From assembly GCA_964346435.1 (NCBI GenBank), contig CAYFUV010000010.1:1-63786 (forward strand): a DNA stretch of 63,786 nucleotides. Direction: 5' to 3'. Below are positions 7,264-46,226 of the stretch, in pieces. The DNA is from an uncultured Candidatus Bathyarchaeia archaeon (lineage in GTDB: Archaea; Thermoproteota; Bathyarchaeia; 40CM-2-53-6; RBG-13-38-9). Under the pieces are notes generated by a model that was not told where the DNA came from, ran no database searches, and saw only the letters and a list, made by a program, of their open reading frames with translations. The translations under genes and the position numbers were made by a program. Each line of letters begins with the position of its first letter. Within the stretch, counting starts at the first letter, position 1.

Positions 7264-7971
7264 TTATTCTCGTCGTATTACCTCAACTTTGTTATCTTTC
7301 TTTCCGACATAGACCTTATCAGCCATTTCTAAAAATAAACCTGTTTCAACGACTCCAGGAATCATTTTCAACCCTCTTTCTAATTTACTTGGGCTATCTA
7401 TTGATTTAAAATTAACATCCACGATCAAATTGCCATTATCAGTTATCACAGGGCCCACTTTTCCAGTAGCTTTTCTTAATTTTGGTTCTCCCCTAAGTTT
7501 CTTTACTGCTTTAAAAATGGCAGTATAGCCAAATGGAACGATCTCTACAGGCACCAGTTGATTTGATCCCAGTTTATTGGTTAATTTTCTTTCATCCACT
7601 ACTATGATGAGCTCTTTAGCATTTGAATCTACAATCTTTTCCCTTGTTAAAGCAGCGCCTCCGCCCTTGATTAGATTTAGACTATTCCGTTCTACTTGGT
7701 CAGCTCCATCTATTGCTAAATCCAATTCTTGTTCTCCTATCCAATTAATAACATGTAACCCATTATTTATGGCAAGCATCTCAATCTGGAGTGATGTTGG
7801 TACAACTTTTATGTTAATTCTATTACTCTTAACCAACTTTCCAAGCTCATGGGTTGCACAAGCCATAGTATTGCCACTTCCGAGCCCTATTGTATAGCCA
7901 TCATCAACTAGAGATATGGCCCCTAAGACAGCTGAATAGACATGCTTTTCTACGTTTATCAATATGACCAC
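7264..7971 (-). CDS. rpiA: ribose-5-phosphate isomerase A
   Basis: 235 aa; GLGSGNT, DGADQV and KGGGAALTREKIV motifs. Confidence 0.9.
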   Translation of the reverse strand: MVILINVEKHVYSAVLGAISLVDDGYTIGLGSGNTMACATHELGKLVKSNRINIKVVPTSLQIEMLAINNGLHVINWIGEQELDLAIDGADQVERNSLNLIKGGGAALTREKIVDSNAKELIIVVDERKLTNKLGSNQLVPVEIVPFGYTAIFKAVKKLRGEPKLRKATGKVGPVITDNGNLIVDVNFKSIDSPSKLERGLKMIPGVVETGLFLEMADKVYVGKKDNKVEVIRRE

Positions 7972-9760: not shown

Positions 9761-9810
9761 CAACCTAATTACTAGGATTTGATATTTATTTTTTTAATAA
9801 AAAATTAGTC

Positions 9811-9821: not shown

Positions 9822-9854
9822 GAGTATAAGTTACTTATATGAGTAAATGATAGA

Positions 9855-10427: not shown

Positions 10428-10465
10428 TTTTTAGTTTATTAAATAATATTTTATTGTGATGATTC

Positions 10466-10476
10466 TATAGCGTGCG
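10466..10476 (+). promoter_or_regulatory. TATAGCGTGCG element upstream of tfe (identical 11-mer upstream of radA)
   Basis: Exact 11-mer at 10466-10476 (23 nt before the tfe TTG) and at 59789-59799 (31 nt before the radA TTG). Confidence 0.4.
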
Positions 10477-10488
10477 GTTTTCACGAAT

Positions 10489-11010: not shown

Positions 11011-11064
11011 AGCTCTTTAAATCTGAATTAAATTTTAAGTTCTGCCCCAATTATAGATTCCACG

Positions 11065-12224: not shown

Positions 12225-12231
12225 TTATGAG

Positions 12232-12885
12232 GTGCAGAAGTTATTGGAAGAAAACGAAATCCTTGAGAGAATAAAAGAATCTTTGGTCAACCTAGATTCT
12301 TCAGAACTAAAAAAAGTAGTGGAAAAAGCAATTAATAATAATATTTCTCCTCAGAAAATAGTAAATCAAGGTTTTGGCAAGGGAATGGAAATTGTTGGGC
12401 AAAAATATGAGAGAGGAGAATATTTTTTATCAGAGCTGATTATTGCCGGCGTAACAATGAATGAGGGATTAGAGCAAATAAGACCTTTTTTAAAAAGGGA
12501 AGATATGAAAACTCGTGGAAGAGTTGCAATAGGCACTGTCGAAGGCGACTTGCATGATATTGGGAAGAATATAGTAAAAACTATGTTGCAATCATCAGGT
12601 TTTGAAGTTCATGACTTAGGAGTTGACGTACCCCCAGCAAGATTTGTTGAAAAGGTTAAAGAATTAAAACCCGATATTGTTGGTATGTCTGCATTACTTA
12701 GTGTTACAATGAATAAAGTTGAGGAAACAATAGACGCTCTAAAAAAGAACTCTTTAAGGAATGATGTAAAGATCTTAGTGGGTGGTAGATGTTTAGATGA
12801 AAAAATTGCGAAAGATATGGGAGCTGATGCATACGGGAGTGACGCTTGGAACGGTGTTTTGAAGGCCAGAGATCTTATTTCATAA
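12232..12885 (+). CDS. corrinoid (B12-binding) methyltransferase cognate protein
   Basis: 217 aa; B12-binding cap region followed by the DxHxxG motif (EGDLHDIGKNIV) and GMSALLS..LVGG Rossmann segments. Confidence 0.85.
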   Translation: MQKLLEENEILERIKESLVNLDSSELKKVVEKAINNNISPQKIVNQGFGKGMEIVGQKYERGEYFLSELIIAGVTMNEGLEQIRPFLKREDMKTRGRVAIGTVEGDLHDIGKNIVKTMLQSSGFEVHDLGVDVPPARFVEKVKELKPDIVGMSALLSVTMNKVEETIDALKKNSLRNDVKILVGGRCLDEKIAKDMGADAYGSDAWNGVLKARDLIS

Positions 12886-24048: not shown

Positions 24049-24531
24049 CTATAGAAGTTCATTCGAAGCCATTGTGATAGCCTCTTCAACTGAATTTGCA
24101 GATTCTACCTTCTTTCCATCAATAACGGATCCCGCCATTTTTTCGGCAACGCCGCCCGAGGATCTAATCGCTATCACTTTTTTACCAGCCTTTAATGCTA
24201 GTCCAACCTCTGAAAGGGTCCCAGCGCCTCCATGAACTGCAATTACAACATCTGCAGATCTCACGTTAATCACGTTTCTTCCATCTCCCATGTTAGTGAC
24301 TATTCTAATATCGACGTATGGGTTTGCCTCTTTTTCCAGCCCGGGTAGAATTCCCACCGTTAAGCCCCCATTTTTCTTTGCGCCTTTACAGGCTGCTTCC
24401 ATCACTCCTCCTCTTCCACCTGTAATAAGTATAGCTCCGATACGGGCGATACCTCTCCCCAACTCTTCAGCCATTTCATGGACTATTGGGGAAATTGGAG
24501 CGTCGCTCCCAATAACAGATACCTGCTTCAT
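24049..24531 (-). CDS. TIGR00725-type LOG/SLOG-like Rossmann protein
   Basis: ITGGRGGVMEAACKGAKKNGGLTVGILPG...VHGGAGTLSEVGLAL. Confidence 0.75.
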   Translation of the reverse strand: MKQVSVIGSDAPISPIVHEMAEELGRGIARIGAILITGGRGGVMEAACKGAKKNGGLTVGILPGLEKEANPYVDIRIVTNMGDGRNVINVRSADVVIAVHGGAGTLSEVGLALKAGKKVIAIRSSGGVAEKMAGSVIDGKKVESANSVEEAITMASNELL

Positions 24532-31818: not shown

Positions 31819-32514
31819 TTGAATATGTGGCACACTTCTATCACGATTGCTATCATTTTAGCACTTTTACATATTATTGGTGAAATTTTTTCTAAGCATA
31901 TCGAACGTTATCATATAAAGCTCTTAAGTTTTGGATCAGGATTTATAGCCGGTACCCTCTTCCTTGAGATAATACCCTACGTTGTTAGAGGTGAAATCCA
32001 CTTAGGGCATTATATCTACATCTTCTTTTTTGCAGGATTTGTTCTAATCCATGTTCTGGAAAAGATATTCTACCAAAAAGCCTCTGGTAAAACTGAGTTT
32101 GTGATGGACATAATCCGATTTCAGACTTTAGGCTTACTCGCCTATGGGCTGCTTATTGGGGTAATTATAGTAGTTTTTGTCGAAGCTTACGGGGATATTG
32201 CCTATTTAATCCTTGCTCCATTCTATGTGCGAACTTTTACAATTTCTGTTTTTTCGAAACATATTATCGAAAAAATCGGCAGTGTAGTATACCGAATATT
32301 GGGATCCGTAGGTCCAATAATTGGGGTTATTGTTAGCTTGTTTTTAATTACAGATAAAGAAACACTTTTTCTTGTCCTCTCAATATCAGTAGGTGCAATT
32401 CTATATATAGTAGTAAGAGACATGATCCCTCTTGGAAGAGAGGGAAAACCAATCTTTTTTGTATTAGGCGCATTAATTGCTGTTTTAGTAACCCTTATCT
32501 TCGGGACACTGTGA
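31819..32514 (+). CDS. polytopic membrane protein (ZIP-like topology, canonical metal motifs not seen)
   Basis: 231 aa, about 7-8 TM. The stop overlaps the GTG at 32511 of the longest glucokinase ORF. Confidence 0.45.
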   Translation: MNMWHTSITIAIILALLHIIGEIFSKHIERYHIKLLSFGSGFIAGTLFLEIIPYVVRGEIHLGHYIYIFFFAGFVLIHVLEKIFYQKASGKTEFVMDIIRFQTLGLLAYGLLIGVIIVVFVEAYGDIAYLILAPFYVRTFTISVFSKHIIEKIGSVVYRILGSVGPIIGVIVSLFLITDKETLFLVLSISVGAILYIVVRDMIPLGREGKPIFFVLGALIAVLVTLIFGTL

Positions 32515-33545
32515 AGTTCGCGCCATTTTTTTCAAATATAGGGTTGAAAATTATGGGATTGATGAAAATGGAGCAAAAATCTAAGGAACCATTGGCACTT
32601 GGTGTTGATTTAGGAGGAACTAAGGTTAAGACAGCATTAGTTGACGCTAATGGCATAATTTTATCCGTCCATAAATATCCAACTAATACAGAAAAAGGCG
32701 CTGATGGAAATATTGAAGATATATTGAAATGCATAGATGGCTGCCTTCAAAAAACCAGGCAAAAGGCAAAAGCACTCGGAATAGGCATCGCAGCTCAAGT
32801 CGATTCAAAAGGTGTAGTATGCAACGCGACTAACTTGAGATGGCGAAATGTTCCATTAAGAAAAATACTTGAAGAAAAATTAAAAATTCCTGTATCGGTT
32901 CTTAACGACGTGAAAGCTGCTACATGGGGAGAATGGCGTTATGGCTCAGGAAAGAATGTAGATGATCTGGTCGTTCTTTTTATTGGAACAGGAGTGGGTG
33001 GGGGCATCATAAGTGGTGGGCGAATGATAATTGGTTGTAATAATAATGGTGGCGAATTAGGTCACATTACTATAGTTACAGATGGCCGAAAATGTCACTG
33101 CCCTAATAATGGTTGTTTAGAAGCATATACCGGAGGTTGGGCTATTGCCGAAAGAGCTCAAGAAGCTGTACGTGCTGATACAACAAAAGACCGGCGCCTT
33201 TTATCCCTAGCAGAGAGAATTGAAAATATCACAGCTAAGACAGTAGCTCAGGCCTATCATGAGAAAGATCCTTTGGCTATTCAATTGATTAAGGAAACTG
33301 GACAATACCTTGGTGCTGGGGTTGTTAGCATAGTAAATGCACTAAATCCATGCATTCTCACTCTTGGAGGTGGCGTCATTGAGGGCATCCCACAGTTAAT
33401 TAATTTTGCGGAAGAGGTTGCAAGAAAGAAAGCTATGACATTAGCTTTGAAAGATATAATAATTACCAAAGCAGCGCTTGGCAGTAATGCCGGCGTTATT
33501 GGTGCGGCAACTTTTGCTCAAAGCAAAATTAGGAAAATTTTGTAA
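32511..33545 (+). CDS. glk: ROK-family glucokinase
   Basis: LGVDLGGTKV, LNDVKAATWGE, the zinc motif GHITIVTDGRKCHCPNNGCLEAY. The true start is probably one of the Mets near 32544-32559. Confidence 0.85.
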   Translation: MKFAPFFSNIGLKIMGLMKMEQKSKEPLALGVDLGGTKVKTALVDANGIILSVHKYPTNTEKGADGNIEDILKCIDGCLQKTRQKAKALGIGIAAQVDSKGVVCNATNLRWRNVPLRKILEEKLKIPVSVLNDVKAATWGEWRYGSGKNVDDLVVLFIGTGVGGGIISGGRMIIGCNNNGGELGHITIVTDGRKCHCPNNGCLEAYTGGWAIAERAQEAVRADTTKDRRLLSLAERIENITAKTVAQAYHEKDPLAIQLIKETGQYLGAGVVSIVNALNPCILTLGGGVIEGIPQLINFAEEVARKKAMTLALKDIIITKAALGSNAGVIGAATFAQSKIRKIL

Positions 33546-33598
33546 ATGAAACATTCTAAAAAGTCATCATATGATTTTTTTTAAGCGCCGACACCTTA

Positions 33599-33621
33599 AT
33601 CACAATATAGTGTAATGTGAT
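33599..33621. promoter_or_regulatory. inverted repeat ATCACA-N11-TGTGAT immediately upstream of tkt
   Basis: Read directly; ends 6 nt before the tkt ATG (33627), in the 81-nt glk-tkt spacer. Confidence 0.3.
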
Positions 33622-33626
33622 CGCTT

Positions 33627-35645
33627 ATGAAGAATTTAGATGAACTTTGTGTGAACACTATTCGGTTTTTAGCTGTGGACGCTGTTGAAAAAGCAAAATC
33701 TGGCCATCCTGGTTTGCCGCTTGGCGCAGCACCAATGGCATATATTTTATGGGATCGATTTTTGCGTCATAATCCAAATAATCCTCATTGGATCAATCGC
33801 GATCGTTTTATTCTCTCAGCGGGTCACGGTTCAGCATTACTTTACTCACTCCTCCATCTTTATGGTTATGACCTGCCTTTAAAAGAAATGAAAAAATTCC
33901 GTCAGTGGAAGAGTAAGACTCCAGGTCATCCAGAATATGGCTTGACGCCAGGTGTGGAAGTTACTACTGGCCCTTTAGGGCAAGGTTTTGCCATGGGTAT
34001 TGGAATGGCAATGGCTGAAAGCTTTCTATCTAATTGCTTCAATCATCCTAATTTCAATGTAATAGATCATTATACATACGCTATCGTTTCGGATGGCGAT
34101 CTTATGGAAGGTGTAAGTTCAGAGGCGGCATCCCTTGCAGCCACTCTGCGGTTGGGTAAGGTGATTTATCTATATGATGATAACCATATCTCGATCGAGG
34201 GCGAAACTGACATTGCGTTTACTGAGAATGTCCAGCAAAGGTTTGAAGCCTACGGGTGGCACGTCCTTCAAGTTCCTGATGGAAATGACCTTCAAAAGAT
34301 CGATGAGGCCATCCAGAAAGCTCAAGCAAAAAAGGACATGCCTACAATAATCATTGTTAGAACACATATCGGTTATGGAAGTCCAAAACAAGATACTGCA
34401 GAGGTTCATGGCGAACCATTGGGCCAAGAGAGTCTGTTAGCAACAAAGAAATTTTTGGATTGGCCATCCGAACCGAATTTCTATATTCCTGAAGAGGCAT
34501 TAAATCATTTTCGCATAGCTGTTGAAAAAGGCAAGAGATTAGAAGATGGATGGTTAACTTTACTGGATGAGTATAAAAAAGGAGAGCCAGAGCTAGCTGC
34601 TCAATTCGAACAGATGTTGAAAGGCAAACTTCCTGTTAAATGGAAAAGCTACTTGCCTATATTCGGCCAAAAAGATGGACCAATGGCAACGCGTAGTGCC
34701 TCAGGCAAAGTGATGAATGTACTTAGTCAGAAACTACATTCATTAGGCAAAGCATCACATCACTTCTTAGTAGGAGGTTCAGCCGATCTTGCACCTTCCA
34801 CAAAAACAATTCTTATGGGATATGGAGACTTTGGTTATGGTAAATATTGTGCTCATAATCTTCACTTTGGCGTTCGTGAGCATGCTATGGGAGCTATTGC
34901 TAATGGTTTGGCCCTTCATAGCAATTTCATCCCATATACCGCCACTTTTTTGGTCTTTTCAGATTATATGCGTCCAGCAATTCGTTTCGCCGCATTAATG
35001 AAAGCCCACGTAATCTTCATATTTACTCACGATAGTATAGGCCTTGGAGAAGATGGTCCAACCCATCAGCCTATTGAACAATTAATGAGTTTAAGGACTA
35101 TTCCGGGACTAACTGTGATTAGACCTGCTGATGCTAATGAAGCATCAGTTGCCTGGGGAATAGCTATTGAACGTAAAGGTCCCACAGCCTTACTCTTTAC
35201 TCGCCAAAAATTACCTATTCTTGACCCTGAACGTTATCCAATTAAAGAAGGAGTTCCTAGAGGCGGTTATATATTAACTGAGGCTAACGGTAAAAATCCA
35301 GAAATCATATTATTGGCCACAGGATCAGAAGTACATTTGGCTTTATCTTCGAGTGAAGCTTTAGTAAAAGAAGGAATTAAAACAAGAGTAGTCTCTATGC
35401 CTTCATGGGAAATTTTTGAAGAGCAATCAAAAGATTATAGAAATCAAGTGCTCCAGCCAGATCCACCTAAACTCTCAATTGAAGCAGGAGTTACGTTAGG
35501 GTGGGGCAAATATATAGGAAAGAAGGGCAAAGCAATAGGATTAAATCGATTCGGCGCTTCTGCTCCAGGCGATATTGTCTATGAAAAACTCGGTTTCAAT
35601 GTTGGCAACATAGTAAAACATTCTTTAGAATTGTTAAATAAGTAA
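33627..35645 (+). CDS. tkt: transketolase, full-length single polypeptide
   Basis: 672 aa; [49 protein letters not shown]. Confidence 0.95.
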
Positions 35646-35672
35646 GCAGAATGGCAATCGTAAGGTGGGAAA

Positions 35673-38429
35673 ATGAACACTTTGAAAGAACTATTAAAAT
35701 ACGGTCAATCCTTTTGGTTGGATTATATTAGAAGAAGTCTAATTACTAGTGGCGAACTAAGACGAATGGTAGAAGAAGATGGATTACGCGGAATTACAAG
35801 TAATCCTACGATCTTTCAAAAAGCAATTGCTGGAAGTCCAGACTATGACGAGATATTGCGCGACTCCGTGAAAGCCGATCCTCATATGGATGTTCGTAAT
35901 CTCTTTGAGAAATTATCAATTGGGGACATCCAATTAGCGGCTGATATATTAAGACCTGTCTACGAAGAATCAAAAGGTATCGATGGCTTTGTCAGCCTAG
36001 AATTGCCACCCCATCTCGCTCGTGATGCCCAAGGGAGCATTATGAAAGCTCGCCGATTGTGGACAGTGATTAAACGTCCTAATATAATGCTTAAAGTTCC
36101 AGCAACTCGAGAAGGGCTCCGAGTTATCGAGACTCTTATTGCTGAAGGTATTAATGTAAACGTAACTCTAATTTTCTCTTTATCTCATTATGAGTCAGTG
36201 GCTAATGCATACATACGAGGGTTGGAGCGCTGCAAAACGCCTCAGAAAATAGCCTCAGTAGCATCCTTCTTTTTGAGCAGAATTGATACGGCTGTTGATA
36301 AGAAATTAAAAGAGATAGGTACTCCAGAAGCTCTCGGACTTCAAGGGAAAATTGCCGTCGCAAATGCAAAGATGGCTTATAAACGCTTTAAGGAAATATT
36401 TAGGGGTAATCGATGGGATCAACTATCGAAACTCGGTGCTAGGGTTCAACGAGTTTTATGGGCAAGCACCAGTACAAAAAATCCTTCATATTCGGATTTA
36501 TTATACGTTGAAGAGATCATTGGTCCCGATACGGTCAATAGTATGCCTCCAGTGACGCTTAATTCGTTTCGAGACCACGGTCGATTGAACGCTTCATTAG
36601 AAGCAGGAGTGGAAGAGGCGGACGAATCTCTTAAACGATTGGCAAAATTGGGAGTAGAATTAAACGCCATTACTGAGAAATTGCAAGTAGATGGAGTAGA
36701 TGCTTTTTCAGAATCATTCAATGATCTAATGGCTACACTAGATAAGAAACGTCAAGCTATACTGCGGGGTCAAGAAGATATTCGGATCTTAAAACTAGGG
36801 AAATATCAAGAACAAGCAGCTAAAAGATTGGATCAACTGAAGAAAACGCACTTCATTCGAAGAATCTGGAAAAAAGACTATACTTTATGGTCCTCAAAAT
36901 CTGTACCGGAAATAACCGATCGATTAGGTTGGCTTTCCCTTCCTGAGATAATGCATGATCAACTTGATGATTTTGTATCGTTCGCTGAGGAAATACGATC
37001 TCAAGGATTTAAGCACGCAGTATTGCTTGGAATGGGAGGTTCAAGCTTGGCTCCAGAAATCTTTCAAAAAATATTTGGAAATAAAAAGGGCTATCTAGAA
37101 TTAATAGTTCTTGACAGTACCCATCCTTCTGCAATAATCGCATTGGAGAATAAAATTGATCTTCGATATACTCTCTTCATAGTATCGAGTAAATCTGGAA
37201 CAACTACAGAGACCCTTTCTTTATTTCAATATTTCTGGAAGGAAGTAGGTCAAGTTAGCTCGAATTGCGGCCATCATTTTATTGCTATTACTGATCCGGA
37301 TACACCATTAGTAAACTTGGCAAAAGAAAGAGGATTTCTTCGAGTTTTCCAGGCTAATCCTGATGTAGGTGGGCGATACTCAGCTCTTACAGCCTTTGGA
37401 TTATTGCCTGCCTCACTTATAGGAATGGATGTACATCAATTCCTTGACCGGGCCTGGATCATGTCTGAAAGTTGTGCTTTCTGTGCATCCTCCGATGAAG
37501 CATCTGGCTTAATTATTGGTGCTGCATTAGGTGAGCTTACGAAAATTGGAAGAGATAAAGTAACCTTCATGACCTCACCATCTATTAGCAGCTTTCCTGA
37601 CTGGATTGAACAGATTATCGCAGAAAGTACGGGAAAAGATGGCAAAGGAATAGTTCCAATCATATATGAGCCTTTGACTCTGCTTGAAAATTATGGAGAG
37701 GATCGATTATTCATAAACTTCTTCATCGAGAGCGATGACAATGCTGAACTTGAAAAACTAACGCAAGCTTTGGAAGCTGAAGGCCATCCAATAATCAATA
37801 TCAAATTGGCCGATAAACTGGATCTAAGTCAAGAAATTTACAGTTGGGAGTTAGCGATCGCAACAGCTGGATCAATAATCGGCATTCATCCCTTTAATCA
37901 ACCTGATGTTCAAATGGCTAAAGATCTGGCCAAAAAAATGATGAAAAAAGCAGAAGAAGAAATTGAGGATGAAGAAGATGTAGAAACAATGTCGATTGAA
38001 GATCAAGACGCGTTGGTGTGGGCTATAAAAGAATGGATTCACCAGGCTAAAAAAGGAGACTATATGGCCATACAAGCTTATCTGTCGCCCAATCCCATGA
38101 TTACAAAAGCTCTACAAAAGCTACGTCTTGAACTCCTGAACCGTCTCCAATTAGCGACTACGTTGGGCTATGGTCCACGCTTCTTACATTCTACTGGGCA
38201 GTTGCATAAAGGAGGTCCTAATAGTGGCCTCTTTATTCAATTAATTGATGAACCAGAAAAAGATCTAGATGTGCCTGAGACGGACTATACTTTTGGCACT
38301 TTAATTAAGGCTCAATCTTTGGGAGACTACAAAGTTTTGAAACAACTAGGCCGTAGAGTCCTAAGAATTAATTTGGGAAAGGATACGATGGGCGGCCTTT
38401 CATTATTGAATAAGTTGATAAAAGAATAA
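35673..38429 (+). CDS. bifunctional transaldolase / glucose-6-phosphate isomerase
   Basis: 918 aa; N-terminal transaldolase (GQSFWLDYIRR..ITSNPTIFQKAI..MLKVPAT) and a C-terminal PGI/SIS domain (LLGMGGSSLAPE..SSKSGTTTET). Confidence 0.9.
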   Translation: MNTLKELLKYGQSFWLDYIRRSLITSGELRRMVEEDGLRGITSNPTIFQKAIAGSPDYDEILRDSVKADPHMDVRNLFEKLSIGDIQLAADILRPVYEESKGIDGFVSLELPPHLARDAQGSIMKARRLWTVIKRPNIMLKVPATREGLRVIETLIAEGINVNVTLIFSLSHYESVANAYIRGLERCKTPQKIASVASFFLSRIDTAVDKKLKEIGTPEALGLQGKIAVANAKMAYKRFKEIFRGNRWDQLSKLGARVQRVLWASTSTKNPSYSDLLYVEEIIGPDTVNSMPPVTLNSFRDHGRLNASLEAGVEEADESLKRLAKLGVELNAITEKLQVDGVDAFSESFNDLMATLDKKRQAILRGQEDIRILKLGKYQEQAAKRLDQLKKTHFIRRIWKKDYTLWSSKSVPEITDRLGWLSLPEIMHDQLDDFVSFAEEIRSQGFKHAVLLGMGGSSLAPEIFQKIFGNKKGYLELIVLDSTHPSAIIALENKIDLRYTLFIVSSKSGTTTETLSLFQYFWKEVGQVSSNCGHHFIAITDPDTPLVNLAKERGFLRVFQANPDVGGRYSALTAFGLLPASLIGMDVHQFLDRAWIMSESCAFCASSDEASGLIIGAALGELTKIGRDKVTFMTSPSISSFPDWIEQIIAESTGKDGKGIVPIIYEPLTLLENYGEDRLFINFFIESDDNAELEKLTQALEAEGHPIINIKLADKLDLSQEIYSWELAIATAGSIIGIHPFNQPDVQMAKDLAKKMMKKAEEEIEDEEDVETMSIEDQDALVWAIKEWIHQAKKGDYMAIQAYLSPNPMITKALQKLRLELLNRLQLATTLGYGPRFLHSTGQLHKGGPNSGLFIQLIDEPEKDLDVPETDYTFGTLIKAQSLGDYKVLKQLGRRVLRINLGKDTMGGLSLLNKLIKE

Positions 38430-38457
38430 TTTCTTTCTAAAAAATTGAGGGAAAAAA

Positions 38458-39366
38458 ATGAAGTTAGGAATGATCGGCCTAGGAAGAATGGGATCCAATA
38501 TGACTTTGCGCCTCATAAAAGGAGGCCATAAAGTAGTGGGCTATGCTCGTACTGCAAAGACTGTTGACCGTATCGTGGAAAAGGGCGCCATAGGCGCATA
38601 TTCCTTAGAAGAATTAGTTCAAAAATTGACTTCGCCAAGAGTGATCTGGTTGATGATTCCCGCAGGAGATCCTGTGGATAAAACCATTCAGGCATTATTG
38701 TCCAAATTAGAAAAAGGAGATATAATCATTGATGGAGGAAATTCCAACTATAAGGATACAATGCGTCGTACCACTATGATTAAAGAAAAAGAAATACATT
38801 TTGTAGATGTTGGTACGAGTGGCGGGATATGGGGACTTGAGGAAGGTTACTGTTTAATGATTGGAGGCGAAAAAGAAGTTGTGGAATACCTCGGCCCTAT
38901 CTTTAGAACTTTGGCTCCTGATTCAGAAAAAGGTTGGGGGCATGTCGGACCAAATGGGGCTGGTCACTTGGTGAAGATGATACACAATGGTATAGAGTAC
39001 GGTCTAATGCAAGCCTATTCGGAGGGCTTCTCATTATTGAATCGTAAAAAGGATTTCAACTTAGATCTTCACAAAATAGCGGAGATCTGGCGTCATGGCA
39101 GTGTTATTAGATCCTGGCTTTTGGATTTGGTCGCTAGAGCTCTGGCCGAAGATTCAGAATTACGTGATATAGAGCCATTTGTAGAGGATTCTGGAGAAGG
39201 ACGTTGGACCGTTTTTGAGGCAATCGATCAAGATGTTGCGGCCCCAGTAATAACCCTATCATTATTACAGCGCTTACACTCCCGTGATAAGGAATCTTTT
39301 TCAGATAGATTATTGGCCGCTATGCGTTATCAATTCGGTGGACACCCGATCAAAAGGAAGGAGTAA
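38458..39366 (+). CDS. gnd: 6-phosphogluconate dehydrogenase (decarboxylating), short form
   Basis: 302 aa; MIGLGRMGSNM, IDGGNSNYKD, VKMIHNGIEYG. Confidence 0.9.
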   Translation: MKLGMIGLGRMGSNMTLRLIKGGHKVVGYARTAKTVDRIVEKGAIGAYSLEELVQKLTSPRVIWLMIPAGDPVDKTIQALLSKLEKGDIIIDGGNSNYKDTMRRTTMIKEKEIHFVDVGTSGGIWGLEEGYCLMIGGEKEVVEYLGPIFRTLAPDSEKGWGHVGPNGAGHLVKMIHNGIEYGLMQAYSEGFSLLNRKKDFNLDLHKIAEIWRHGSVIRSWLLDLVARALAEDSELRDIEPFVEDSGEGRWTVFEAIDQDVAAPVITLSLLQRLHSRDKESFSDRLLAAMRYQFGGHPIKRKE

Positions 39367-39368
39367 AG

Positions 39369-40820
39369 TTGGCAATAAGCAAGATTGAACCGCACATTTA
39401 TGTAATTTTTGGTGCAACAGGGAATCTTGCACGTCGAAAATTATTTCCTGCGTTATACCACCTATCCGCAAAAGGAGAATTAAAAGGAAAAAATAAAATT
39501 CTGGGTGTTGCGAGGGGGGATTTGGACGACCATAAATATCGAATTTTGGCGCGTGATATGTTGAAATCAGCTGGGTTGCCAATTGATAATAAAATATACT
39601 CTCCTTGGTGCGAATCTTGTCTAAATTATCACTCGATCGATAAAGGAGACTCAAAAGACTATGAAAAGTTAGCAGCAAGAATAGAATCAATAGAGCAAGA
39701 AAATGACATGCCAGGTAACAGAGTTTTCAATATTGCAGTCCCTCCTAGTGTATTCCCAAAAGCAGTCATGGGTCTTGGGGAAGCTGGGCTTAATAAGAGT
39801 CCTGGCTGGACACGATTGGTGGTCGAAAAGCCTTTCGGGAGCGATCTTTCCTCGGCTAAAGAGCTGAATAATCTAGTTCACAAATATTTTGAAGAGTCTC
39901 AGATCTATCGTATTGACCATTTCTTAGGAAAGGAAACAGTCCAGAATCTTTTGGTTTTCCGTTTTGCTAATGCTTTTTTTGAACATTTGTGGAGTCGTGA
40001 ACACATCGAGAGTGTGGAGATCACTGTGGCAGAGAATTTGGGAATCGAAGGGAGATCTAACTACTATGAGCAGACTGGAGCTTTGCGGGATATGGTACAA
40101 AATCATCTGACTCAAATTCTGACTATGGTGGCTATGGAGATACCAATAGCTTTTGAAGCAGAAGCTCTTCGGAACGAGAAAGTAAAAGTTCTGCGTCAGA
40201 TCGCCCCAATTCTAACTAAAAACATTATATATGGACAATATATTAAGGGAAAGATTGATGGAAAGGAAGTTGTAGGATATAGGGAAGAGTCGGGCATATC
40301 TACTAATTCAAAAATAGAAACTTTCGTGGCTCTAAAGTTGGAAGTAAATAACTGGCGTTGGAAAGGCGTCCCTTTTTATCTTCGAACAGGTAAGCGAATG
40401 CCCAAAAGACTTACTCAAATAATTATAAAATTTCATTGCGCCCCTATCTCGATCTTCAAACCCTTCGAGTCAACCTGTGCACTAGAGCCAAATGCTTTAA
40501 TCATTACACTTCAGCCCTATGAAGGATTTGATATGAAATTCCAAGTAAAATCAATAGGTCAGCCTCTTACACTTACAACTCAGCAGTTACGATTTCGTTA
40601 TTCCGAAACTTTTGGGGCACTTCCAGATGCTTATGAGACTTTGCTCTTAGATGTTATAAAAGGCGATCAAACCCTTTTTGTTAGATACGATGAAGTAGAA
40701 GCTTCTTGGCAACTTTACAATCCTGTCCTAGGAAAAAAAATTCCATTAAAAAATTATTCAGCAGGAACATGGGGGCCAACTGAAGCAGATCATTTTTTCT
40801 CTTTGGAAGAGAAACGATGA
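39369..40820 (+). CDS. zwf: glucose-6-phosphate 1-dehydrogenase
   Basis: GATGNLARRKLFPALY, EKPFG, RIDHFLGKE; TTG start 2 nt after the gnd stop. Confidence 0.95.
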   Translation: MAISKIEPHIYVIFGATGNLARRKLFPALYHLSAKGELKGKNKILGVARGDLDDHKYRILARDMLKSAGLPIDNKIYSPWCESCLNYHSIDKGDSKDYEKLAARIESIEQENDMPGNRVFNIAVPPSVFPKAVMGLGEAGLNKSPGWTRLVVEKPFGSDLSSAKELNNLVHKYFEESQIYRIDHFLGKETVQNLLVFRFANAFFEHLWSREHIESVEITVAENLGIEGRSNYYEQTGALRDMVQNHLTQILTMVAMEIPIAFEAEALRNEKVKVLRQIAPILTKNIIYGQYIKGKIDGKEVVGYREESGISTNSKIETFVALKLEVNNWRWKGVPFYLRTGKRMPKRLTQIIIKFHCAPISIFKPFESTCALEPNALIITLQPYEGFDMKFQVKSIGQPLTLTTQQLRFRYSETFGALPDAYETLLLDVIKGDQTLFVRYDEVEASWQLYNPVLGKKIPLKNYSAGTWGPTEADHFFSLEEKR

Positions 40821-41581
40821 CAGGGAAAAAAGGGTCGGAAGTATTTTTTTTCTCGAATTTAGATAGAGCAAGTAGGGCAATCGCCAAATACCTTATCCAA
40901 ATGATTTTAGAGGCTACCGTTAGAAAAAAACAATTCAATCTTGCCGTTGCAGGTGGTGATACTCCAAGGCATTTATACAGTCTTTTAGCTAGCAAATTCT
41001 CGGATCAGATACCTTGGAATCTTGTTCATATCTTCTGGAGCGACGAACGCTATGTGCCAAAAGAGAGCCGCTATAATAACTATGCAATGGTCTTGGGCGC
41101 ATTAATTTCGAAGATTCCAATCCCTAATCCAAATATTCATCGGATTATTACCGAATTAGAACCTCCTGAGAAGGCCGCTTCATCTTATGAAAAATTGTTA
41201 CGTAAATATTTTTCAGACAAGGCAGCTTATACCTTTGACCTCTTACTTTTAGGTATGGGTGAAGATGGCCATATAGCCTCACTTTTTCCTCACTCAGCTG
41301 AATTGATGGAAAAAGAACGGTGGGTGGTATCTGTTAATGCTCCTTCTGCTATTTACCCAAGGAAGAGAATTACACTTACTCTTCCTATTATCAATAAGGC
41401 TAAATCCATTTTTTTCCTTGTATCCGGAACCAAAAAGAAAGACATTGTCAATTCTATTCAGAAAGATCATAAGATCGCTAGAAAGATCTATCCTGCTGCC
41501 ATGGTAAGTTCAATTAACAAACTAATTTGGTTTGTTGTAAACGATTTGCCATTAATCGCTAATATAGAAAAACCTCAATAA
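40817..41581 (+). CDS. pgl: 6-phosphogluconolactonase
   Basis: LAVAGGDTPRHLY, LLLLGMGEDGHIASLFP; ATGA overlap with the zwf stop. Confidence 0.9.
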   Translation: MTGKKGSEVFFFSNLDRASRAIAKYLIQMILEATVRKKQFNLAVAGGDTPRHLYSLLASKFSDQIPWNLVHIFWSDERYVPKESRYNNYAMVLGALISKIPIPNPNIHRIITELEPPEKAASSYEKLLRKYFSDKAAYTFDLLLLGMGEDGHIASLFPHSAELMEKERWVVSVNAPSAIYPRKRITLTLPIINKAKSIFFLVSGTKKKDIVNSIQKDHKIARKIYPAAMVSSINKLIWFVVNDLPLIANIEKPQ

Positions 41582-41631
41582 CTCAAGAAGAGGTTTATGA
41601 AAATTAGTAATTGTTTAGAATAAGATTGACT

Positions 41632-42267
41632 CTAGGAAGTTACTGTATCCACTAATTCCTTTATTGCCTTGTCTACATCATCGCTCTTGAATATATACGA
41701 ACCAGATGCGAATATGTTCGCACCTGAATTTTTAGCGAGTCTTGCATTAATAGGATTCATACAACCATCGACTTCTATTGGAATCGCACGATCGATTTCT
41801 CTGAGTCTCTTAATCTTCTCCAATGGCTCTGGATTAAATTCTTTTTTTATGCAATAGCTACCGGGTTCGACGGTCATTATGAGCAAGCCATCGATATCCT
41901 TTAAATAATGTTCTATTATTTCAACTTTTGTTCCTGGCACCATTGCTAAATTAACTTTGGCACCCCTTCTTTTAATCTGATCTATGGCATATCCAACATT
42001 TTCTAAGATTTCAATGTGCATAGTTATTATATCGACTTTATCAGCATTTTCATCGGCCCAGTCCAAAGGATCCTTGACCATCAAGTGGGCCTCATACTCG
42101 AAATCATCAGTAATTTTAAATTTAAAATTCAGTGAAGTATTAGGAACAAAATTTCCATCCATAACATCAAGCTGAACTCTTTTGACTTTTCCTTTAACTC
42201 TTTTCAGCATGCCATCAAGTTCATTCTGTGTCTTTGCTATTATAGCAGGAACAACTAGGATTTCCAA
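41632..42267 (-). CDS. rpe: ribulose-phosphate 3-epimerase
   Basis: 211 aa; LDVMDGNFVPN, AHLMV, VDGCMNP; convergent with pgl. Confidence 0.85.
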   Translation of the reverse strand: MEILVVPAIIAKTQNELDGMLKRVKGKVKRVQLDVMDGNFVPNTSLNFKFKITDDFEYEAHLMVKDPLDWADENADKVDIITMHIEILENVGYAIDQIKRRGAKVNLAMVPGTKVEIIEHYLKDIDGLLIMTVEPGSYCIKKEFNPEPLEKIKRLREIDRAIPIEVDGCMNPINARLAKNSGANIFASGSYIFKSDDVDKAIKELVDTVTS

Positions 42268-42321: not shown

Positions 42322-42960
42322 TTATTTATATTTTTTATAGTTTAAACAGAATTTTTCATTTCCATCTTTAAATCCTTCGTAGGCCTTCTCAATGATTTTA
42401 AAAGCCTCGCGATAGTCTTTAGCTAAAAACAAAAGCTCAACATCTTCAATATTTAGTAATTTATTCTTGAGAGGCCAATTCTTAATCCATCGTACTAAAT
42501 CGGGCCACATATCACCCAACAAAATTATCGGAGTATTGCAAATATGTTTTACCTGCAATAATTGCCAAGTGTAAAAAAGTTCCAATAATGTTCCTACCCC
42601 TCCATGAGCAACTACGACAGCATTAGATAGCTGCATGAAATTATCAAGGCGATTAGAAAAAAGGTCAAATTCTTTCTTGATATCGAGATGAGCCGCCTCT
42701 ATTTGTTCAAATGGGAGATTAATTCTAAGACCAACAGAATGTGTTTCTTTTCCTTCGCGCCCAGCGTAATGCCCCTCACTCGCTGCACTCATCAGACCGG
42801 GTCCGCCGCCAGTTACTAAATCCATTCCGGCCTCCGCGATCACTTTTGCTAAATCATATATTGTCTTATAGATCGGATCGCCATTTTTTATTCTTGCAGA
42901 GCCAAAAATTGCGACACGAAAATGTTTCTTGCTGAGTTCCTCTTCAAGTCCAGTTTTCAT
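42322..42960 (-). CDS. LOG family protein (TIGR00730, lysine-decarboxylase-like nucleotide phosphoribohydrolase)
   Basis: GGGPGLM and GGVGTLLELF (PGGxGTxxE-type) motifs. Confidence 0.85.
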   Translation of the reverse strand: MKTGLEEELSKKHFRVAIFGSARIKNGDPIYKTIYDLAKVIAEAGMDLVTGGGPGLMSAASEGHYAGREGKETHSVGLRINLPFEQIEAAHLDIKKEFDLFSNRLDNFMQLSNAVVVAHGGVGTLLELFYTWQLLQVKHICNTPIILLGDMWPDLVRWIKNWPLKNKLLNIEDVELLFLAKDYREAFKIIEKAYEGFKDGNEKFCLNYKKYK

Positions 42961-43207: not shown

Positions 43208-43286
43208 TGGCGGACCCGCAGGGATTCGAACCCCGGATCTCTGGCTCCGGAGGCCAGCGTCATAATCCAGACTAGACCACGGGTCC
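43208..43286 (-). tRNA. tRNA-Arg(CCG), intron-less, encoded CCA
   Basis: The reverse complement reads GGACCCG..CTGGC-CTCCGGA-GCCAG-AGATC-CGGGG-TTCGAAT-CCCTG-CGGGTCC-G-CCA, a canonical 76 nt plus CCA. Confidence 0.9.
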
Positions 43287-45068: not shown

Positions 45069-46226
45069 CTATATGCAAATCCAGAAGATTAGAAAATAAT
45101 CAGGTGAATTCAATACACGGATATCCATGGGAATATGGATATGATTGCCGATAAAGCCTTTGAAACTGAGATCACCCTCTTCATATACATAACCGCATCT
45201 ATCAAAAGCCTTATCCTGATTAATACGTTCTACATAGTAGGTATTTATTTCTGCAAATCCGATTTGATCGTACCACTTCAACTCATATTCTATTAGACCT
45301 TGGTCGGCTAAAGACATCACCACATCAATTGCGGTTATAACACCTTCTTGGAAAGTATCATTCCTCAGGTTATGTGGCTCAACTGCGACATTCTCAAATC
45401 GAAGTACTCCTGATGGTGTTATAATTGAAACTTCGGGAATAATCACTTTTCCATTATCTTTTAACCGGTTAACTTCTTCATTAAAGACATCGTATCTTTT
45501 TTGCAAGTCCTTCTCATGAACTCTCAAAAATTCTATGTGCATCTTATCCTTATAGGGAAAATGATCCATCCTAAAGGAATTAGATTCTCGCCATCCACCG
45601 TCATAAAAAGCACAATACCACCAATTTGGCTCTCCATTTATTGAATCTACAACGTAAGTATTCATTGAAGAGTCGAAATAATAATCGACCGATATTTCTC
45701 CCTTCTCATCCAAATGTGCAAGGACATCAAATACTGAAAAATGTCCGCTTTTGAAGATATCTGGTCGTAGAGTTTTGACAGTTTCAGGATCATAGCCAAT
45801 GAAACCAATCCCTTGAATGTTTACAATGGCCTTTGGTTCGGGTTTTTCGATTTCTGGAGTCGTAGGTTCAACACTGGGTGTTGTTAAAGTCTCAACATCT
45901 GGCGAGGTTGTAATTTCGATAGGCCTTGTATAGTCTAAGTTGATATATGCCGCTGCCGAAAATGACGCGATCCCTATGACGAGGACAGCAAATGTAGGAA
46001 GTAGCTTTCTTTTAAGAATTCTGATTAATCTGAATCTAATGTATATGAGGACATGTGCAAGAAATAGAGCTATGAGAGGTAAGTCAAGTCTATTATGGAG
46101 ATAGGCGCCGAGGTATGGATCAACAAAGCCCCTAGTTCGCATATAACCTGAAAATAAAAACAGAATAAAGATGATAAATAGCGCCCAACAAATTATTCTA
46201 TTGGTCTTTCCAACTACGGAAGCCAA
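45069..46226 (-). CDS. membrane-anchored extracytoplasmic protein with two internally repeated ~100-aa modules
   Basis: 385 aa; 3 N-terminal TM helices, a Thr/Pro/Glu-rich linker, then two modules sharing FDV/IDV...G.I...NTY(V/Y)V(D/E)xIN. Confidence 0.5.
   Translation of the reverse strand: MASVVGKTNRIICWALFIIFILFLFSGYMRTRGFVDPYLGAYLHNRLDLPLIALFLAHVLIYIRFRLIRILKRKLLPTFAVLVIGIASFSAAAYINLDYTRPIEITTSPDVETLTTPSVEPTTPEIEKPEPKAIVNIQGIGFIGYDPETVKTLRPDIFKSGHFSVFDVLAHLDEKGEISVDYYFDSSMNTYVVDSINGEPNWWYCAFYDGGWRESNSFRMDHFPYKDKMHIEFLRVHEKDLQKRYDVFNEEVNRLKDNGKVIIPEVSIITPSGVLRFENVAVEPHNLRNDTFQEGVITAIDVVMSLADQGLIEYELKWYDQIGFAEINTYYVERINQDKAFDRCGYVYEEGDLSFKGFIGNHIHIPMDIRVLNSPDYFLIFWICI

What the first reader, a model, noticed from the sequence alone, without database searches (positions are those of the whole stretch)
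31819..42267. Complete bacterial-style oxidative pentose phosphate operon embedded in an archaeal chromosome
Six co-directional, tightly packed genes lie on the plus strand: ROK glucokinase, transketolase, transaldolase-PGI fusion, short-form Gnd, Zwf and Pgl. Gnd and Zwf are 2 nt apart, and zwf and pgl overlap in ATGA at 40817-40820. Rpe is convergent downstream and RpiA sits at 7264-7971, so the window encodes glucose to G6P to Ru5P plus the full non-oxidative branch and PGI. Zwf carries the canonical RIDHFLGKE and EKPFG motifs. The flanking genes are clearly archaeal (TFE, aIF-1A/2beta, Topo VI, RadA, class I LysRS, intron-rich tRNAs). By established knowledge, most archaea lack Zwf/Gnd/Pgl and make pentoses through the reverse RuMP route, and haloarchaea use a non-homologous G6P dehydrogenase. 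A canonical oxPPP block is therefore unusual and looks like an en bloc acquisition supplying NADPH. By eye the block is somewhat GC-richer than the informational genes, but the transporter genes are too, so composition alone is not decisive.
Basis: partly seen in the sequence, partly recalled or inferred. Interest (0 to 1): 0.75.

Follow-up and report, generated by a model that had tools for sequence, protein, structure and literature searches.

The report
Bacterial-type pentose phosphate operon in Bathyarchaeia
A sediment archaeon (Bathyarchaeia) carries a complete, intact, bacterial-style gene cluster for the oxidative pentose phosphate pathway; the cluster is real and unusual for archaea, but it is an old, fully domesticated inheritance shared with many other archaeal genomes, not a fresh acquisition.

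Summary
ROK kinase, full-length transketolase, transaldolase-PGI fusion, short 6PGDH, Zwf and Pgl lie head to tail on the + strand at 32511-41581. Rpe is convergent downstream and RpiA sits at 7264-7971.

Corrections:
- 31819-32514 is a ZIP-like membrane protein, not ROK.
- Only one tRNA was found in the window.

Host: the contig is archaeal on both sides. Topo VI-B best matches Bathyarchaeota (79%).

Origin: the reading "bacterial origin, moved en bloc" is supported.
- The gene order matches Bipolaricaulia, Acidobacteriota and Chloroflexota operons.
- All five gene trees agree.
- The Zwf sits in a clade nested among bacterial sequences.

Age: it is not a recent or singular event.
- GC3, codon usage and tetranucleotides match the rest of the contig.
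- The same operon, at 60-82% identity, occurs on contigs with 36-62% GC.
- A 100-sequence Zwf clade (bootstrap 90) holds every Bathyarchaeota, Thermoproteota, Nitrososphaeria and Heimdall label and two of three Hydrothermarchaeales labels, and no bacterial one.

Function (inferred): a cyclic oxidative PPP yielding NADPH. Related loci link gnd-zwf to thioredoxin and thioredoxin reductase genes.

Verdict: new member of a known kind, moderate interest.

The parts
31819..32514 (+). ZIP-like short membrane protein (probable start ATG 31825). It lies directly upstream of ROK and is not part of the pathway proper.
   Evidence: Weak PF02535 hit. In a family of 311 representative clusters, 26 of 40 aligned members hit ZIP (best 1.5e-8). 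The family profile hits BbZIP 5tsa at E=0.011. A 45% homologue sits next to ROK in L085.
32511..33545 (+). ROK-family sugar kinase without an HTH domain, a presumed glucokinase (true start probably 32554-32569).
   Evidence: PF00480 at 2.6e-66. TIGR00744 scores 226 bits, below the 260 cut-off. DLGGT and CHCPNNGCLE motifs are present. Orthologues at 60-71% identity hold the same position in L085, L089, L090 and L092.
33627..35645 (+). Full-length (three-domain) bacterial-type transketolase.
   Evidence: TIGR00232 scores 887 bits against a 682 cut-off. Identity is 74-82% to L088, L089, L090 and L092, and 69% to Bipolaricaulia.
35673..38429 (+). Bifunctional transaldolase / glucose-6-phosphate isomerase fusion.
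   Evidence: NF007080 scores 1211 bits against a 712 cut-off.
38458..39366 (+). Short-chain (302 aa) decarboxylating 6-phosphogluconate dehydrogenase, predicted to use NADP+.
   Evidence: NF007161 scores 468 bits and TIGR00872 409 bits. The GAGHLVKMIHNGIEYG catalytic motif aligns to solved short 6PGDHs. The end of beta2 reads YART rather than Asp.
39369..40820 (+). Glucose-6-phosphate dehydrogenase (Zwf), TTG start, preceded by a GGAGG-like motif.
   Evidence: TIGR00871 scores 573 bits. D183, H184, K188, H246 and K342 are invariant and R49 is nearly invariant. It aligns end to end with solved G6PDHs. Sequence.
40817..41581 (+). 6-phosphogluconolactonase (Pgl), overlapping zwf by ATGA.
   Evidence: TIGR01198 scores 208 bits against a 124 cut-off. 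GMGEDGHIASLFP motif is present. Overlap shown.
41632..42267 (-). Divergent ribulose-phosphate 3-epimerase family protein, convergent with the operon.
   Evidence: PF00834 at 1.9e-34, but below both NCBIfam Rpe cut-offs. Gln stands at the first metal-ligand His. It holds the same convergent position in L090 and L091 and is co-directional in L088.
42322..42960 (-). LOG / SLOG-cluster4 family protein, a recurrent neighbour of the operon.
   Evidence: PF03641 and PF18306. Orthologues at 64-67% identity lie beside the operon in L084 and L089.
7264..7971 (-). Ribose-5-phosphate isomerase A, unlinked (24 kb away). It completes the non-oxidative branch.
   Evidence: PF06026 at 1.8e-62.

Best explanation
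The window is a Bathyarchaeia chromosome fragment. It carries a long-resident operon of bacterial ancestry that encodes a complete, probably cyclic, oxidative pentose phosphate pathway.

Proposed steps, inferred from family membership, conserved residues and context, not measured:
1. ROK kinase phosphorylates glucose.
2. Zwf oxidises G6P, with NADP+ predicted as cofactor.
3. Pgl opens the lactone.
4. The short Gnd decarboxylates 6-phosphogluconate to Ru5P, again with NADP+ predicted.
5. Rpe and RpiA, then Tkt and the Tal domain, rebuild F6P and GAP.
6. The fused PGI domain returns F6P to G6P.

The output is NADPH plus pentoses. In related loci gnd-zwf sits beside thioredoxin and thioredoxin-reductase genes. 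A main role is therefore probably to supply NADPH for thiol and redox maintenance as well as for biosynthesis.

Evolution: the block entered archaea from bacteria as a unit, long ago. It then diversified, vertically and between archaea, across Bathyarchaeia and other lineages. It is fully adapted to this genome.
For: - Gene identities pass curated cut-offs for Tkt, Tal-PGI, Gnd, Zwf and Pgl.
- Catalytic residues are present: Zwf D183/H184/K188/H246/K342, and the Gnd Lys/Glu motif.
- Cofactor positions are Arg-type: Zwf R49, and Gnd YART where many bacterial short Gnds have Asp.
- Genes are tightly spaced or overlapping, with an SD-like motif before zwf.
- The host is archaeal and Bathyarchaeial by Topo VI-B.
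- Composition is ameliorated: GC3 0.319 against 0.324, codon distance 0.088 against 0.101, tetranucleotide correlation 0.93-0.97.
- The same operon occurs in L085, L088, L089 (Bathy MAG), L090, L091 and L092 at 60-82% identity and 36-62% GC.
- Non-operon neighbours are shared with the Bathy MAG locus.
- A Zwf clade of 100 sequences (bootstrap 90) carries only archaeal labels. It is nested in a 128-sequence clade (bootstrap 100) together with NC10, Bipolaricaulia, Acidobacteriota and Salinibacter.
- The Tal-PGI tree and the five per-gene locus trees are congruent.
- The bacterial operon order is shown.
- Thioredoxin and TrxR orthologues lie beside gnd-zwf in L082, L084, L085, L087 and L089.
Against: - No enzyme activity, cofactor preference or expression was measured.
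- ROK and Rpe fall below NCBIfam equivalog cut-offs, and Rpe lacks one canonical metal-ligand His.
- Only 7 of the 100 sequences in the 'archaeal' Zwf clade carry a taxon label. The labels come from MAG bins, which can be wrong: two Topo VI-B hits carry bacterial labels.
- In the Tal-PGI tree a block of Aminicenantes sequences falls inside the archaeal set with weak support, so more than one interdomain event is likely.
- The trees are neighbour-joining with a Kimura correction, not maximum likelihood.
- The window itself has no thioredoxin or TrxR gene, so the redox link rests on relatives only.
- Whether the genome also has RuMP or EMP enzymes cannot be seen from one contig.
Confidence: 0.75

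Rival explanations
1. Recent en bloc horizontal acquisition by this particular genome from a bacterial donor. This is the strong form of the reader's interpretation.
For: - The enzymes and gene order are bacterial-type.
- The block has a slightly higher overall GC.
- A tRNA-Arg gene lies 0.9 kb beyond the block.
Against: - GC3, codon usage and tetranucleotides equal the rest of the contig. The extra GC is at codon positions 1-2 only.
- No Pfam-scanned ORF on either side of the block hit an integrase or transposase family.
- The nearest relatives (73-82%) are on contigs with the same arrangement and similar GC. The labelled relatives in its clade are archaeal.
- The nearest labelled bacterial Zwf is only 60% identical.
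Confidence: 0.06
2. Assembly or binning chimera joining bacterial DNA to an archaeal contig.
For: None positive. It is raised only because the genes look bacterial.
Against: - Archaeal informational genes lie on both sides within one contig.
- There is no compositional discontinuity.
- An independent assembly contig (L081) reproduces gnd-zwf-pgl-rpe at 97-100% identity.
- The right-hand neighbour LOG and the unnamed ORF at 45069-46226 also lie beside the operon in a Bathyarchaeota MAG locus.
Confidence: 0.02
3. The cluster is mainly a catabolic route: a cyclic PPP serving as the principal way to oxidise glucose for energy, as in Gluconobacter. NADPH and redox supply would be secondary. This differs from the best explanation in physiological role, not in enzymology.
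For: - A sugar kinase heads the operon, and PGI is fused to Tal, closing the cycle.
- Neighbours in relatives include GH15 glucoamylase, GFO/IDH/MocA oxidoreductases and MR/MLE sugar-acid enzymes.
- ABC sugar-type ATPases (MalK-like) lie in the window.
Against: - Gnd and Zwf carry NADP-type residues.
- Thioredoxin, TrxR, rubrerythrin, YjeF_N and NUDIX genes recur beside or inside the operon in relatives. These point to reductant supply or repair.
- No respiratory or NADPH-reoxidising module is linked.
Confidence: 0.3
4. Reverse direction: the operon clade arose in archaea and was donated to Bipolaricaulia, NC10 and other bacteria.
For: Bipolaricaulia, NC10 and Methylomirabilales sequences are almost as close to the window (60%) as other archaeal ones are (62-67%). 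Basal branching among them is poorly supported.
Against: - The archaeal clade is nested within successive bacterial groups: a 128-sequence clade at bootstrap 100, then only bacteria outside it.
- Full-length Tkt and the Tal-PGI fusion are broadly bacterial and rare in archaea.
- Thermoplasmata (L008) and one Hydrothermarchaeales sequence branch separately, implying several independent imports.
Confidence: 0.08

Closest known systems
Bacterial tkt-tal/pgi-gnd-zwf-(opcA)-pgl operons (Bipolaricaulia, Acidobacteriota, Chloroflexota, Dormiibacterota, Salinibacter)
   Same: Same enzyme families, the same Tal-PGI fusion, the same short Gnd and the same gene order. The Bipolaricaulia locus L093 is 60-69% identical for Tkt, Tal-PGI, Gnd and Zwf and 49% for Pgl.
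   Different: - The host is an archaeon.
- A ROK kinase heads the operon.
- zwf and pgl overlap, with no room for the ~1.2-kb gene seen between them in many bacterial loci. That gene is presumed to be OpcA and was not checked.
- Rpe is convergent downstream.
Oxidative PPP reported in Heimdallarchaeia (Hodarchaeales, Kariarchaeaceae)
   Same: Canonical oxidative PPP genes in an archaeal lineage (bioRxiv 10.1101/2024.07.04.601786; PMC10307638). A Heimdall-labelled Zwf (67% identical) falls in the same clade as the window's, and the L090 locus of that subclade has the identical operon.
   Different: The host here is Bathyarchaeia. The Heimdall label rests on a 4.3-kb MAG contig that I could not verify. 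Those papers frame the pathway as linked to aerobiosis, which is untested here.
Haloarchaeal oxidative PPP with the non-homologous G6PDH Azf (Pickl and Schonheit 2015, as cited in PMC12525153)
   Same: Same pathway chemistry in an archaeon.
   Different: The window's enzyme is a canonical Zwf (PF00479 and PF02781), not the non-homologous archaeal Azf enzyme that PMC12525153 describes.
Archaeal reverse ribulose-monophosphate route (Hps-Phi), the usual archaeal pentose supply
   Same: Same end product (Ru5P/R5P). It is the route assumed for most Bathyarchaeia (PMC8407382; PMC11237513).
   Different: It yields no NADPH and uses unrelated enzymes. None were seen among the window ORFs I scanned. 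Whether the genome also has it is unknown.
Gluconobacter-type cyclic PPP (Tal-PGI fusion plus short-chain 6PGDH)
   Same: The NF007080-type fusion and a ~300-330-aa 6PGDH.
   Different: The solved short 6PGDHs aligned here carry Asp at the end of beta2 (FDR, YDL). The window has YART, which predicts NADP+ use. The link to Gluconobacter is from my own knowledge and was not tested.

Membership tests
Canonical glucose-6-phosphate dehydrogenase (Zwf; TIGR00871, PF00479 + PF02781) | Scores above the curated family cut-off over the full length | tested here: met
   TIGR00871 scores 573 bits against 400.6, covering residues 8-478. Both Pfam domains match.
Canonical glucose-6-phosphate dehydrogenase (Zwf; TIGR00871, PF00479 + PF02781) | Catalytic and substrate-binding residues: the RIDHYLGKE Asp-His-Lys, the general-base His, EKPxG, and the GxxGxLA dinucleotide fold with the 2'-phosphate Arg | tested here: met
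   D183, H184, K188, H246, K342 and E153-G157 are invariant and R49 is nearly invariant in 30 homologues. They align to solved G6PDHs. The role assigned to each residue comes from my knowledge of the L. mesenteroides and human enzymes.
Canonical glucose-6-phosphate dehydrogenase (Zwf; TIGR00871, PF00479 + PF02781) | NAD(P)+-dependent G6P oxidation activity | not testable with these tools
   Needs a recombinant enzyme assay.
Short-chain decarboxylating 6-phosphogluconate dehydrogenase (NF007161 / TIGR00872) | Score above cut-off and the catalytic Lys/Glu motif GAGHxVKMxHNGIEYG | tested here: met
   Scores are 468 bits against 271, and 409 against 297. The motif is present and aligns to 6vpb and 4e21.
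Short-chain decarboxylating 6-phosphogluconate dehydrogenase (NF007161 / TIGR00872) | Cofactor class (NADP+ or NAD+) | tested here: inconclusive
   The end of beta2 is YART (no Asp, Arg present), as in NADP-type enzymes and unlike the Asp of many bacterial short Gnds. However, the protein passes both the 'NADP-dependent' and the 'NAD+-dependent' NCBIfam models.
6-phosphogluconolactonase (TIGR01198) | Score above the curated cut-off | tested here: met
   208 bits against 124.
Bifunctional transaldolase/phosphoglucose isomerase (NF007080) | Both domains in one polypeptide, with a score above cut-off over the full length | tested here: met
   1211 bits against 712, covering residues 1-917. PF00923 and PF00342 both match.
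Bacterial-type full-length transketolase (TIGR00232) | Three domains in one chain and a score above cut-off | tested here: met
   887 bits against 682. N, Pyr and C domains all match. Most archaea have a split Tkt (PMC11237513).
ROK glucokinase (TIGR00744) | Score above the subfamily cut-off, and substrate specificity for glucose | tested here: not met
   226 bits against a 260 cut-off. It is a ROK kinase without an HTH domain (PF00480 at 2.6e-66). Glucose specificity is inferred from context only.
Ribulose-phosphate 3-epimerase (TIGR01163 / NF004076) | Score above cut-off and the four metal ligands His/Asp/His/Asp | tested here: not met
   134 bits against 213, and 150 against 165. The first His is Gln (Q32), and Gln or Met in the orthologues. 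It is a family member by Pfam (1.9e-34). Its function is inferred from the conserved position beside the operon.
Recently acquired genomic island | Atypical composition or codon usage, and mobility genes or an integration site | tested here: not met
   GC3, codon distance and tetranucleotide correlation match the rest of the contig. No Pfam-scanned ORF around the block hit an integrase or transposase family.
Bacterial PPP operon (tkt-tal/pgi-gnd-zwf-pgl) | Conserved gene order and shared phylogenetic history of the genes | tested here: met
   The order is identical to L093 and to many bacterial loci. Five gene trees are congruent.

The most novel reading that the evidence does not exclude
One ancient bacterial-to-archaeal transfer of a whole glucokinase-to-Pgl operon seeded a large, so far undescribed archaeal clade of canonical oxidative PPP. 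The clade spans Bathyarchaeia, Nitrososphaeria, Hydrothermarchaeota and the Heimdallarchaeia discussed in eukaryogenesis papers. It is genomically coupled to the thioredoxin system as an NADPH source. That coupling would have let nominally anaerobic sediment archaea cope with oxidants.
Probability: 0.3. Interest if true: 0.5.

Novelty: new member of a known kind. Interest (0 to 1): 0.35.

Why it matters
Textbook accounts and recent surveys treat the oxidative pentose phosphate branch as rare in archaea. The metabolic reconstructions of Bathyarchaeia that I read consider only the 'archaeal' (RuMP) and non-oxidative routes.

This locus and its relatives show that a complete canonical pathway, with its own sugar kinase and a closed cycle, is stably encoded in at least part of this very abundant sediment lineage. 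That changes predicted NADPH budgets and sugar use in these organisms.

It also gives a clean case of an entire bacterial operon being domesticated and kept intact in archaea. All the enzymes are ordinary, so the value lies in distribution and evolution, not in new biochemistry.

Tried and rejected
- **Genome-contig scan with a Zwf alignment.** It gave bacterial synteny but no close, named genomes.
- **Cluster look-up of ten window proteins.** It returned no names.
- **Sigma-70 promoter and intrinsic-terminator scan.** Counts equalled the shuffles, which is uninformative as expected for an archaeon.
- **tRNA scans of related loci to infer their domain.** No tRNAs were found in the close loci.
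- **Search of the window for thioredoxin, TrxR, rubrerythrin, YjeF_N, NUDIX and DUF302 homologues.** None were found.
- **Literature searches for Bathyarchaeia plus oxidative PPP, G6PDH or zwf.** No paper in the library describes this.
- **Asgard origin of the contig.** I considered it because the best labelled Zwf hit is Heimdall. I rejected it because Topo VI-B points to Bathyarchaeota.
- **Not attempted.** Structure prediction (the families are unambiguous by sequence) and ML phylogeny (no tool was available, so NJ with bootstrap was used).

Full report
**1. What is there**

The + strand between 31.8 and 41.6 kb holds seven ORFs.
It is a ~229-aa multi-pass membrane protein with only a weak ZIP hit.
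  - It belongs to a family of about 311 representative clusters. 26 of 40 aligned members hit PF02535, and the family profile hits the ZIP structure 5tsa at E=0.011.
- The other six ORFs are as described:

| Coordinates | Gene | Best family score |
|---|---|---|
| 32511-33545 | ROK kinase | PF00480 2.6e-66 |
| 33627-35645 | Full-length transketolase | TIGR00232, 887 bits |
| 35673-38429 | Transaldolase-PGI fusion | NF007080, 1211 bits |
| 38458-39366 | 302-aa 6PGDH | NF007161, 468 bits |
| 39369-40820 | Zwf | TIGR00871, 573 bits |
| 40817-41581 | Pgl | TIGR01198, 208 bits |

- The 2-nt gnd-zwf gap and the ATGA overlap of zwf and pgl are in the sequence.
- An Rpe-family gene is convergent at 41632-42267, and RpiA lies at 7264-7971.
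- ROK (226 bits against 260) and Rpe (150 against 165; 134 against 213) do not reach NCBIfam's curated cut-offs.
- The 344-aa ROK form is not in the protein collection, so the true start is probably ATG 32554-32569.

**2. Are the enzymes intact?**

- Zwf has D183, H184 and K188 (YRIDHFLGKE), H246, K342, EKPFG and the GATGNLA fold. These residues are invariant across 30 homologues, and the Arg of LGVAR (R49) is nearly invariant. Zwf aligns end to end with solved G6PDHs.
- Gnd has the GAGHLVKMIHNGIEYG catalytic motif and aligns to solved short 6PGDHs.
- At the end of strand beta2, the window's Gnd and its close relatives read Y/N-A-R-T/H/S. Many bacterial short Gnds have Asp there. From what is known of 6PGDH cofactor binding (the NRT motif of NADP enzymes), this predicts NADP+ use. 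It is an inference.
- The Rpe-like protein lacks the first metal-ligand His. It has Q32, and its orthologues have Gln or Met. Its PGFGGQ loop is also altered. Its epimerase role rests on conserved position, not on a passed family test.

**3. Host**

- Both flanks are archaeal: archease, ADP-forming acetyl-CoA synthetase, NAC, archaeosine-TGT-like PUA protein, aTrm56, TFE, geranylgeranyl reductase, class I LysRS, Topo VI A and B, a KH/Dim2-like protein, RIO kinase, aIF-1A-like, aIF2-beta, RadA and NFACT.
- Topo VI-B's best labelled hits are Bathyarchaeota (79%), then Thermoproteota and Bathyarchaeia (68-70%). The contig is Bathyarchaeial, not Asgard.
- Only one tRNA (Arg-CCG) was found by ARAGORN and by Rfam at either threshold. 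'Intron-rich tRNAs' is not reproduced.

**4. Foreign-looking or not?**

- The block has GC 0.402 against 0.378 for the other genes. The excess is at codon positions 1 and 2.
- GC3 is 0.319 against 0.324 (sd 0.039). Codon-usage distance to the rest of the contig is 0.088 against 0.101 for other genes. Tetranucleotide correlation is 0.93-0.97, within the contig's range.
- No Pfam-scanned ORF around the block hit an integrase or transposase family.
- An independent assembly contig (L081) reproduces gnd-zwf-pgl-rpe at 97-100% identity.
- I see no sign of a chimera or of recent import.

**5. Relatives and synteny**

The closest Zwf proteins (67-74% identity) are unlabelled metagenome sequences. Labelled hits were:

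| Label | Identity to window Zwf |
|---|---|
| Heimdallarchaeota | 67% |
| Bathyarchaeota | 63% |
| Hydrothermarchaeales | 60-63% |
| Thermoproteota | 60% |
| Nitrososphaeria | 59% |
| Bipolaricaulia, NC10/Methylomirabilales | 59-60% |

Contigs carrying these proteins show the same operon:
- L090: ROK-Tkt-TalPgi-Gnd-Zwf-Pgl with convergent Rpe, identical to the window.
- L091: (TalPgi)-Gnd-Zwf-Pgl with convergent Rpe.
- L092: ROK-Tkt-TalPgi-Gnd-(Zwf).
- L085 (GC 62%): ZIP-like gene (divergent)-ROK-YjeF_N-Tkt-TalPgi-Gnd-Zwf-NUDIX.
- L089, a Bathyarchaeota MAG: Trx-ROK-zf-Tkt-TalPgi-Gnd-Zwf-DUF302-LOG.
- L088: disulfide reductase-Tkt-TalPgi-Gnd-Zwf-Rpe, with an ATP-dependent DNA ligase nearby.
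- L082 and L087: only Gnd-Zwf, with convergent thioredoxin and a TrxR-like gene.

Per-gene identities to the window are 60-82% across loci whose GC ranges from 36 to 62%. The window also shares non-operon neighbours with L084 and L089: a LOG gene (64-67%) and an unnamed ORF (45%, L089 only). This argues for long residence in related genomes.

**6. Bacterial ancestry**

- The order tkt-tal/pgi-gnd-zwf-pgl is common in bacterial loci from Acidobacteriota, Chloroflexota, Dormiibacterota, Salinibacter and others. There is often a ~1.2-kb gap between zwf and pgl.
- The Bipolaricaulia locus L093 reads GH15-Tkt-TalPgi-HAD-Gnd-Zwf-Pgl-Pyr_redox.
- In a 144-taxon NJ tree of Zwf (100 bootstraps), the window lies in a 100-sequence clade with support 90.
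  - That clade contains the labelled Bathyarchaeota, Thermoproteota, Nitrososphaeria and Heimdall sequences and two of three Hydrothermarchaeales sequences. It contains no labelled bacterium.
  - It is nested in a 128-sequence clade (support 100) with NC10, Bipolaricaulia, Acidobacteriota, Salinibacter, Acidimicrobiia, Nitrospiraceae and deltaproteobacteria.
  - A Thermoplasmata sequence and one Hydrothermarchaeales sequence branch separately. Only bacteria lie outside.
- The Tal-PGI tree has the same outer structure. A block of Aminicenantes sequences falls among the archaeal ones with weak support.
- Locus-based trees for Tkt, Tal-PGI, Gnd, Zwf and Pgl all place the window with L091/L092, L088, L090, L089 and L085. 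Bipolaricaulia is the nearest labelled bacterial locus in all five trees.
  - The archaeal-type set excluding Bipolaricaulia has support 93 (Tal-PGI), 97 (Zwf) and 79 (Gnd). It is unresolved for Tkt.
- I read this as an old import of the block as a unit, followed by diversification in archaea. At least two further independent imports occurred elsewhere in archaea.
- Limits: NJ rather than ML, few labelled sequences, and MAG labels that can be wrong.

**7. How it most likely works**

- Shown: gene content, intact catalytic motifs, operon-like packing and conserved synteny.
- Inferred pathway: glucose goes to G6P (ROK). G6P goes to 6-phosphogluconolactone with NADPH (Zwf), then to 6-phosphogluconate (Pgl), then to Ru5P with CO2 and NADPH (Gnd). 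Rpe and RpiA give Xu5P and R5P. Tkt and Tal give F6P and GAP. The fused PGI returns F6P to G6P, so the pathway can cycle.
- Inferred role: NADPH supply.
  - The same thioredoxin orthologue (52-89% identity) lies beside the genes in L082, L084, L087 and L089.
  - The same TrxR-like gene (75-87%) lies in L082, L085 and L087.
  - Other disulfide reductases, rubrerythrin, NAD(P)HX epimerase (YjeF_N) and NUDIX genes also sit next to or inside the operon in relatives.
  - The window itself has none of these.
- A mainly catabolic role (cyclic PPP for sugar oxidation) is a live alternative. It is supported by the sugar kinase and by sugar-active neighbours in relatives.

**8. Comparison with what is known**

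- The enzymes are ordinary members of their families.
- A 2017 paper counted complete PPPs only in two Nanohaloarchaea and two Woesearchaeota (PMC5864196).
- Heimdallarchaeia are reported to have a partial or complete oxidative PPP. One Hydrothermarchaeota genome is reported with an incomplete one (PMC6946796).
- Haloarchaea use a non-homologous G6PDH.
- Bathyarchaeia reconstructions consider the 'archaeal PPP', the non-oxidative branch and reverse RuMP (PMC10321748 and PMC8407382).
- I found no paper in the library describing the oxidative branch in Bathyarchaeia. The proteins are, however, already annotated as such in public MAGs.

**9. Verdict**

It is wrong in implying a special or recent acquisition.
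- It is a new member of a known kind: a canonical oxidative PPP operon in a host lineage where it has not been highlighted.
- Interest is moderate (0.35). The value lies in distribution, evolution and redox physiology, not in new biochemistry.

Noticed in passing
window 31819-32514 (+): A short (~229 aa) ZIP-like membrane protein lies directly upstream of the ROK kinase. A 45% homologue sits divergently next to ROK in L085 (1650-2330). It may be a divalent-metal transporter, and ROK kinases bind zinc. The family has about 311 representative clusters and no curated model.
   Followed up: partly
window 41632-42267 (-); L088, L090, L091 orthologues: The operon-linked Rpe-family protein has Gln (or Met in L088) in place of the first metal-binding His. 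Its PGFGGQ loop is changed to PGSYCI, and DGG is changed to DGC. It scores below both NCBIfam Rpe cut-offs. It may be a divergent epimerase subfamily with a different metal site.
   Followed up: partly
L082 3429-5327; L087 7422-9613; L084 15497-17840; L085 533-1447 and 13897-14472; L089 2239-2619; L088 251-1783; L093 12214-13425: Orthologous thioredoxin and thioredoxin-reductase-like genes, other disulfide reductases and rubrerythrin recur beside gnd-zwf in related loci. L085 also has YjeF_N (NAD(P)HX epimerase) and NUDIX genes inside the operon. The window has none of these.
   Followed up: partly
window 42322-42960 (-) and 24049-24531 (-): There are two LOG / SLOG-cluster4 family genes. The one next to Rpe has 64-67% orthologues beside the operon in L084 and L089.
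   Followed up: partly
window 45069-46226 (-): A 385-aa protein with no Pfam hit. It is 45% identical over 312 aa to a no-Pfam ORF (363-1322) next to the operon in the Bathyarchaeota MAG locus L089.
   Followed up: no
window 11065-12885 (+): Two adjacent URO-D-like ORFs (11065-11832 and 11829-12224, possibly one gene split by a frameshift) are followed by a B12-binding corrinoid protein. This looks like a corrinoid methyltransferase system of the kind discussed for Bathyarchaeia.
   Followed up: no
window 43208-43286 (-): This tRNA-Arg(CCG) is the only tRNA that ARAGORN and Rfam detect in 63.8 kb.
   Followed up: yes
L008 (Thermoplasmata MAG, GC 68%) 4807-12168: A separate archaeal copy of Tkt-PGI-Gnd-Zwf-Pgl branches outside the main archaeal clade, among bacterial sequences (Zwf 49% identical to the window). 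This suggests an independent import.
   Followed up: partly
one search hit list (P0211, P0227): Two Topo VI-B proteins about 65% identical to the window's carry bacterial MAG labels (Terriglobales, Methylomirabilota). These are probably binning errors. They are a caution for all MAG-label-based taxonomy used here.
   Followed up: no
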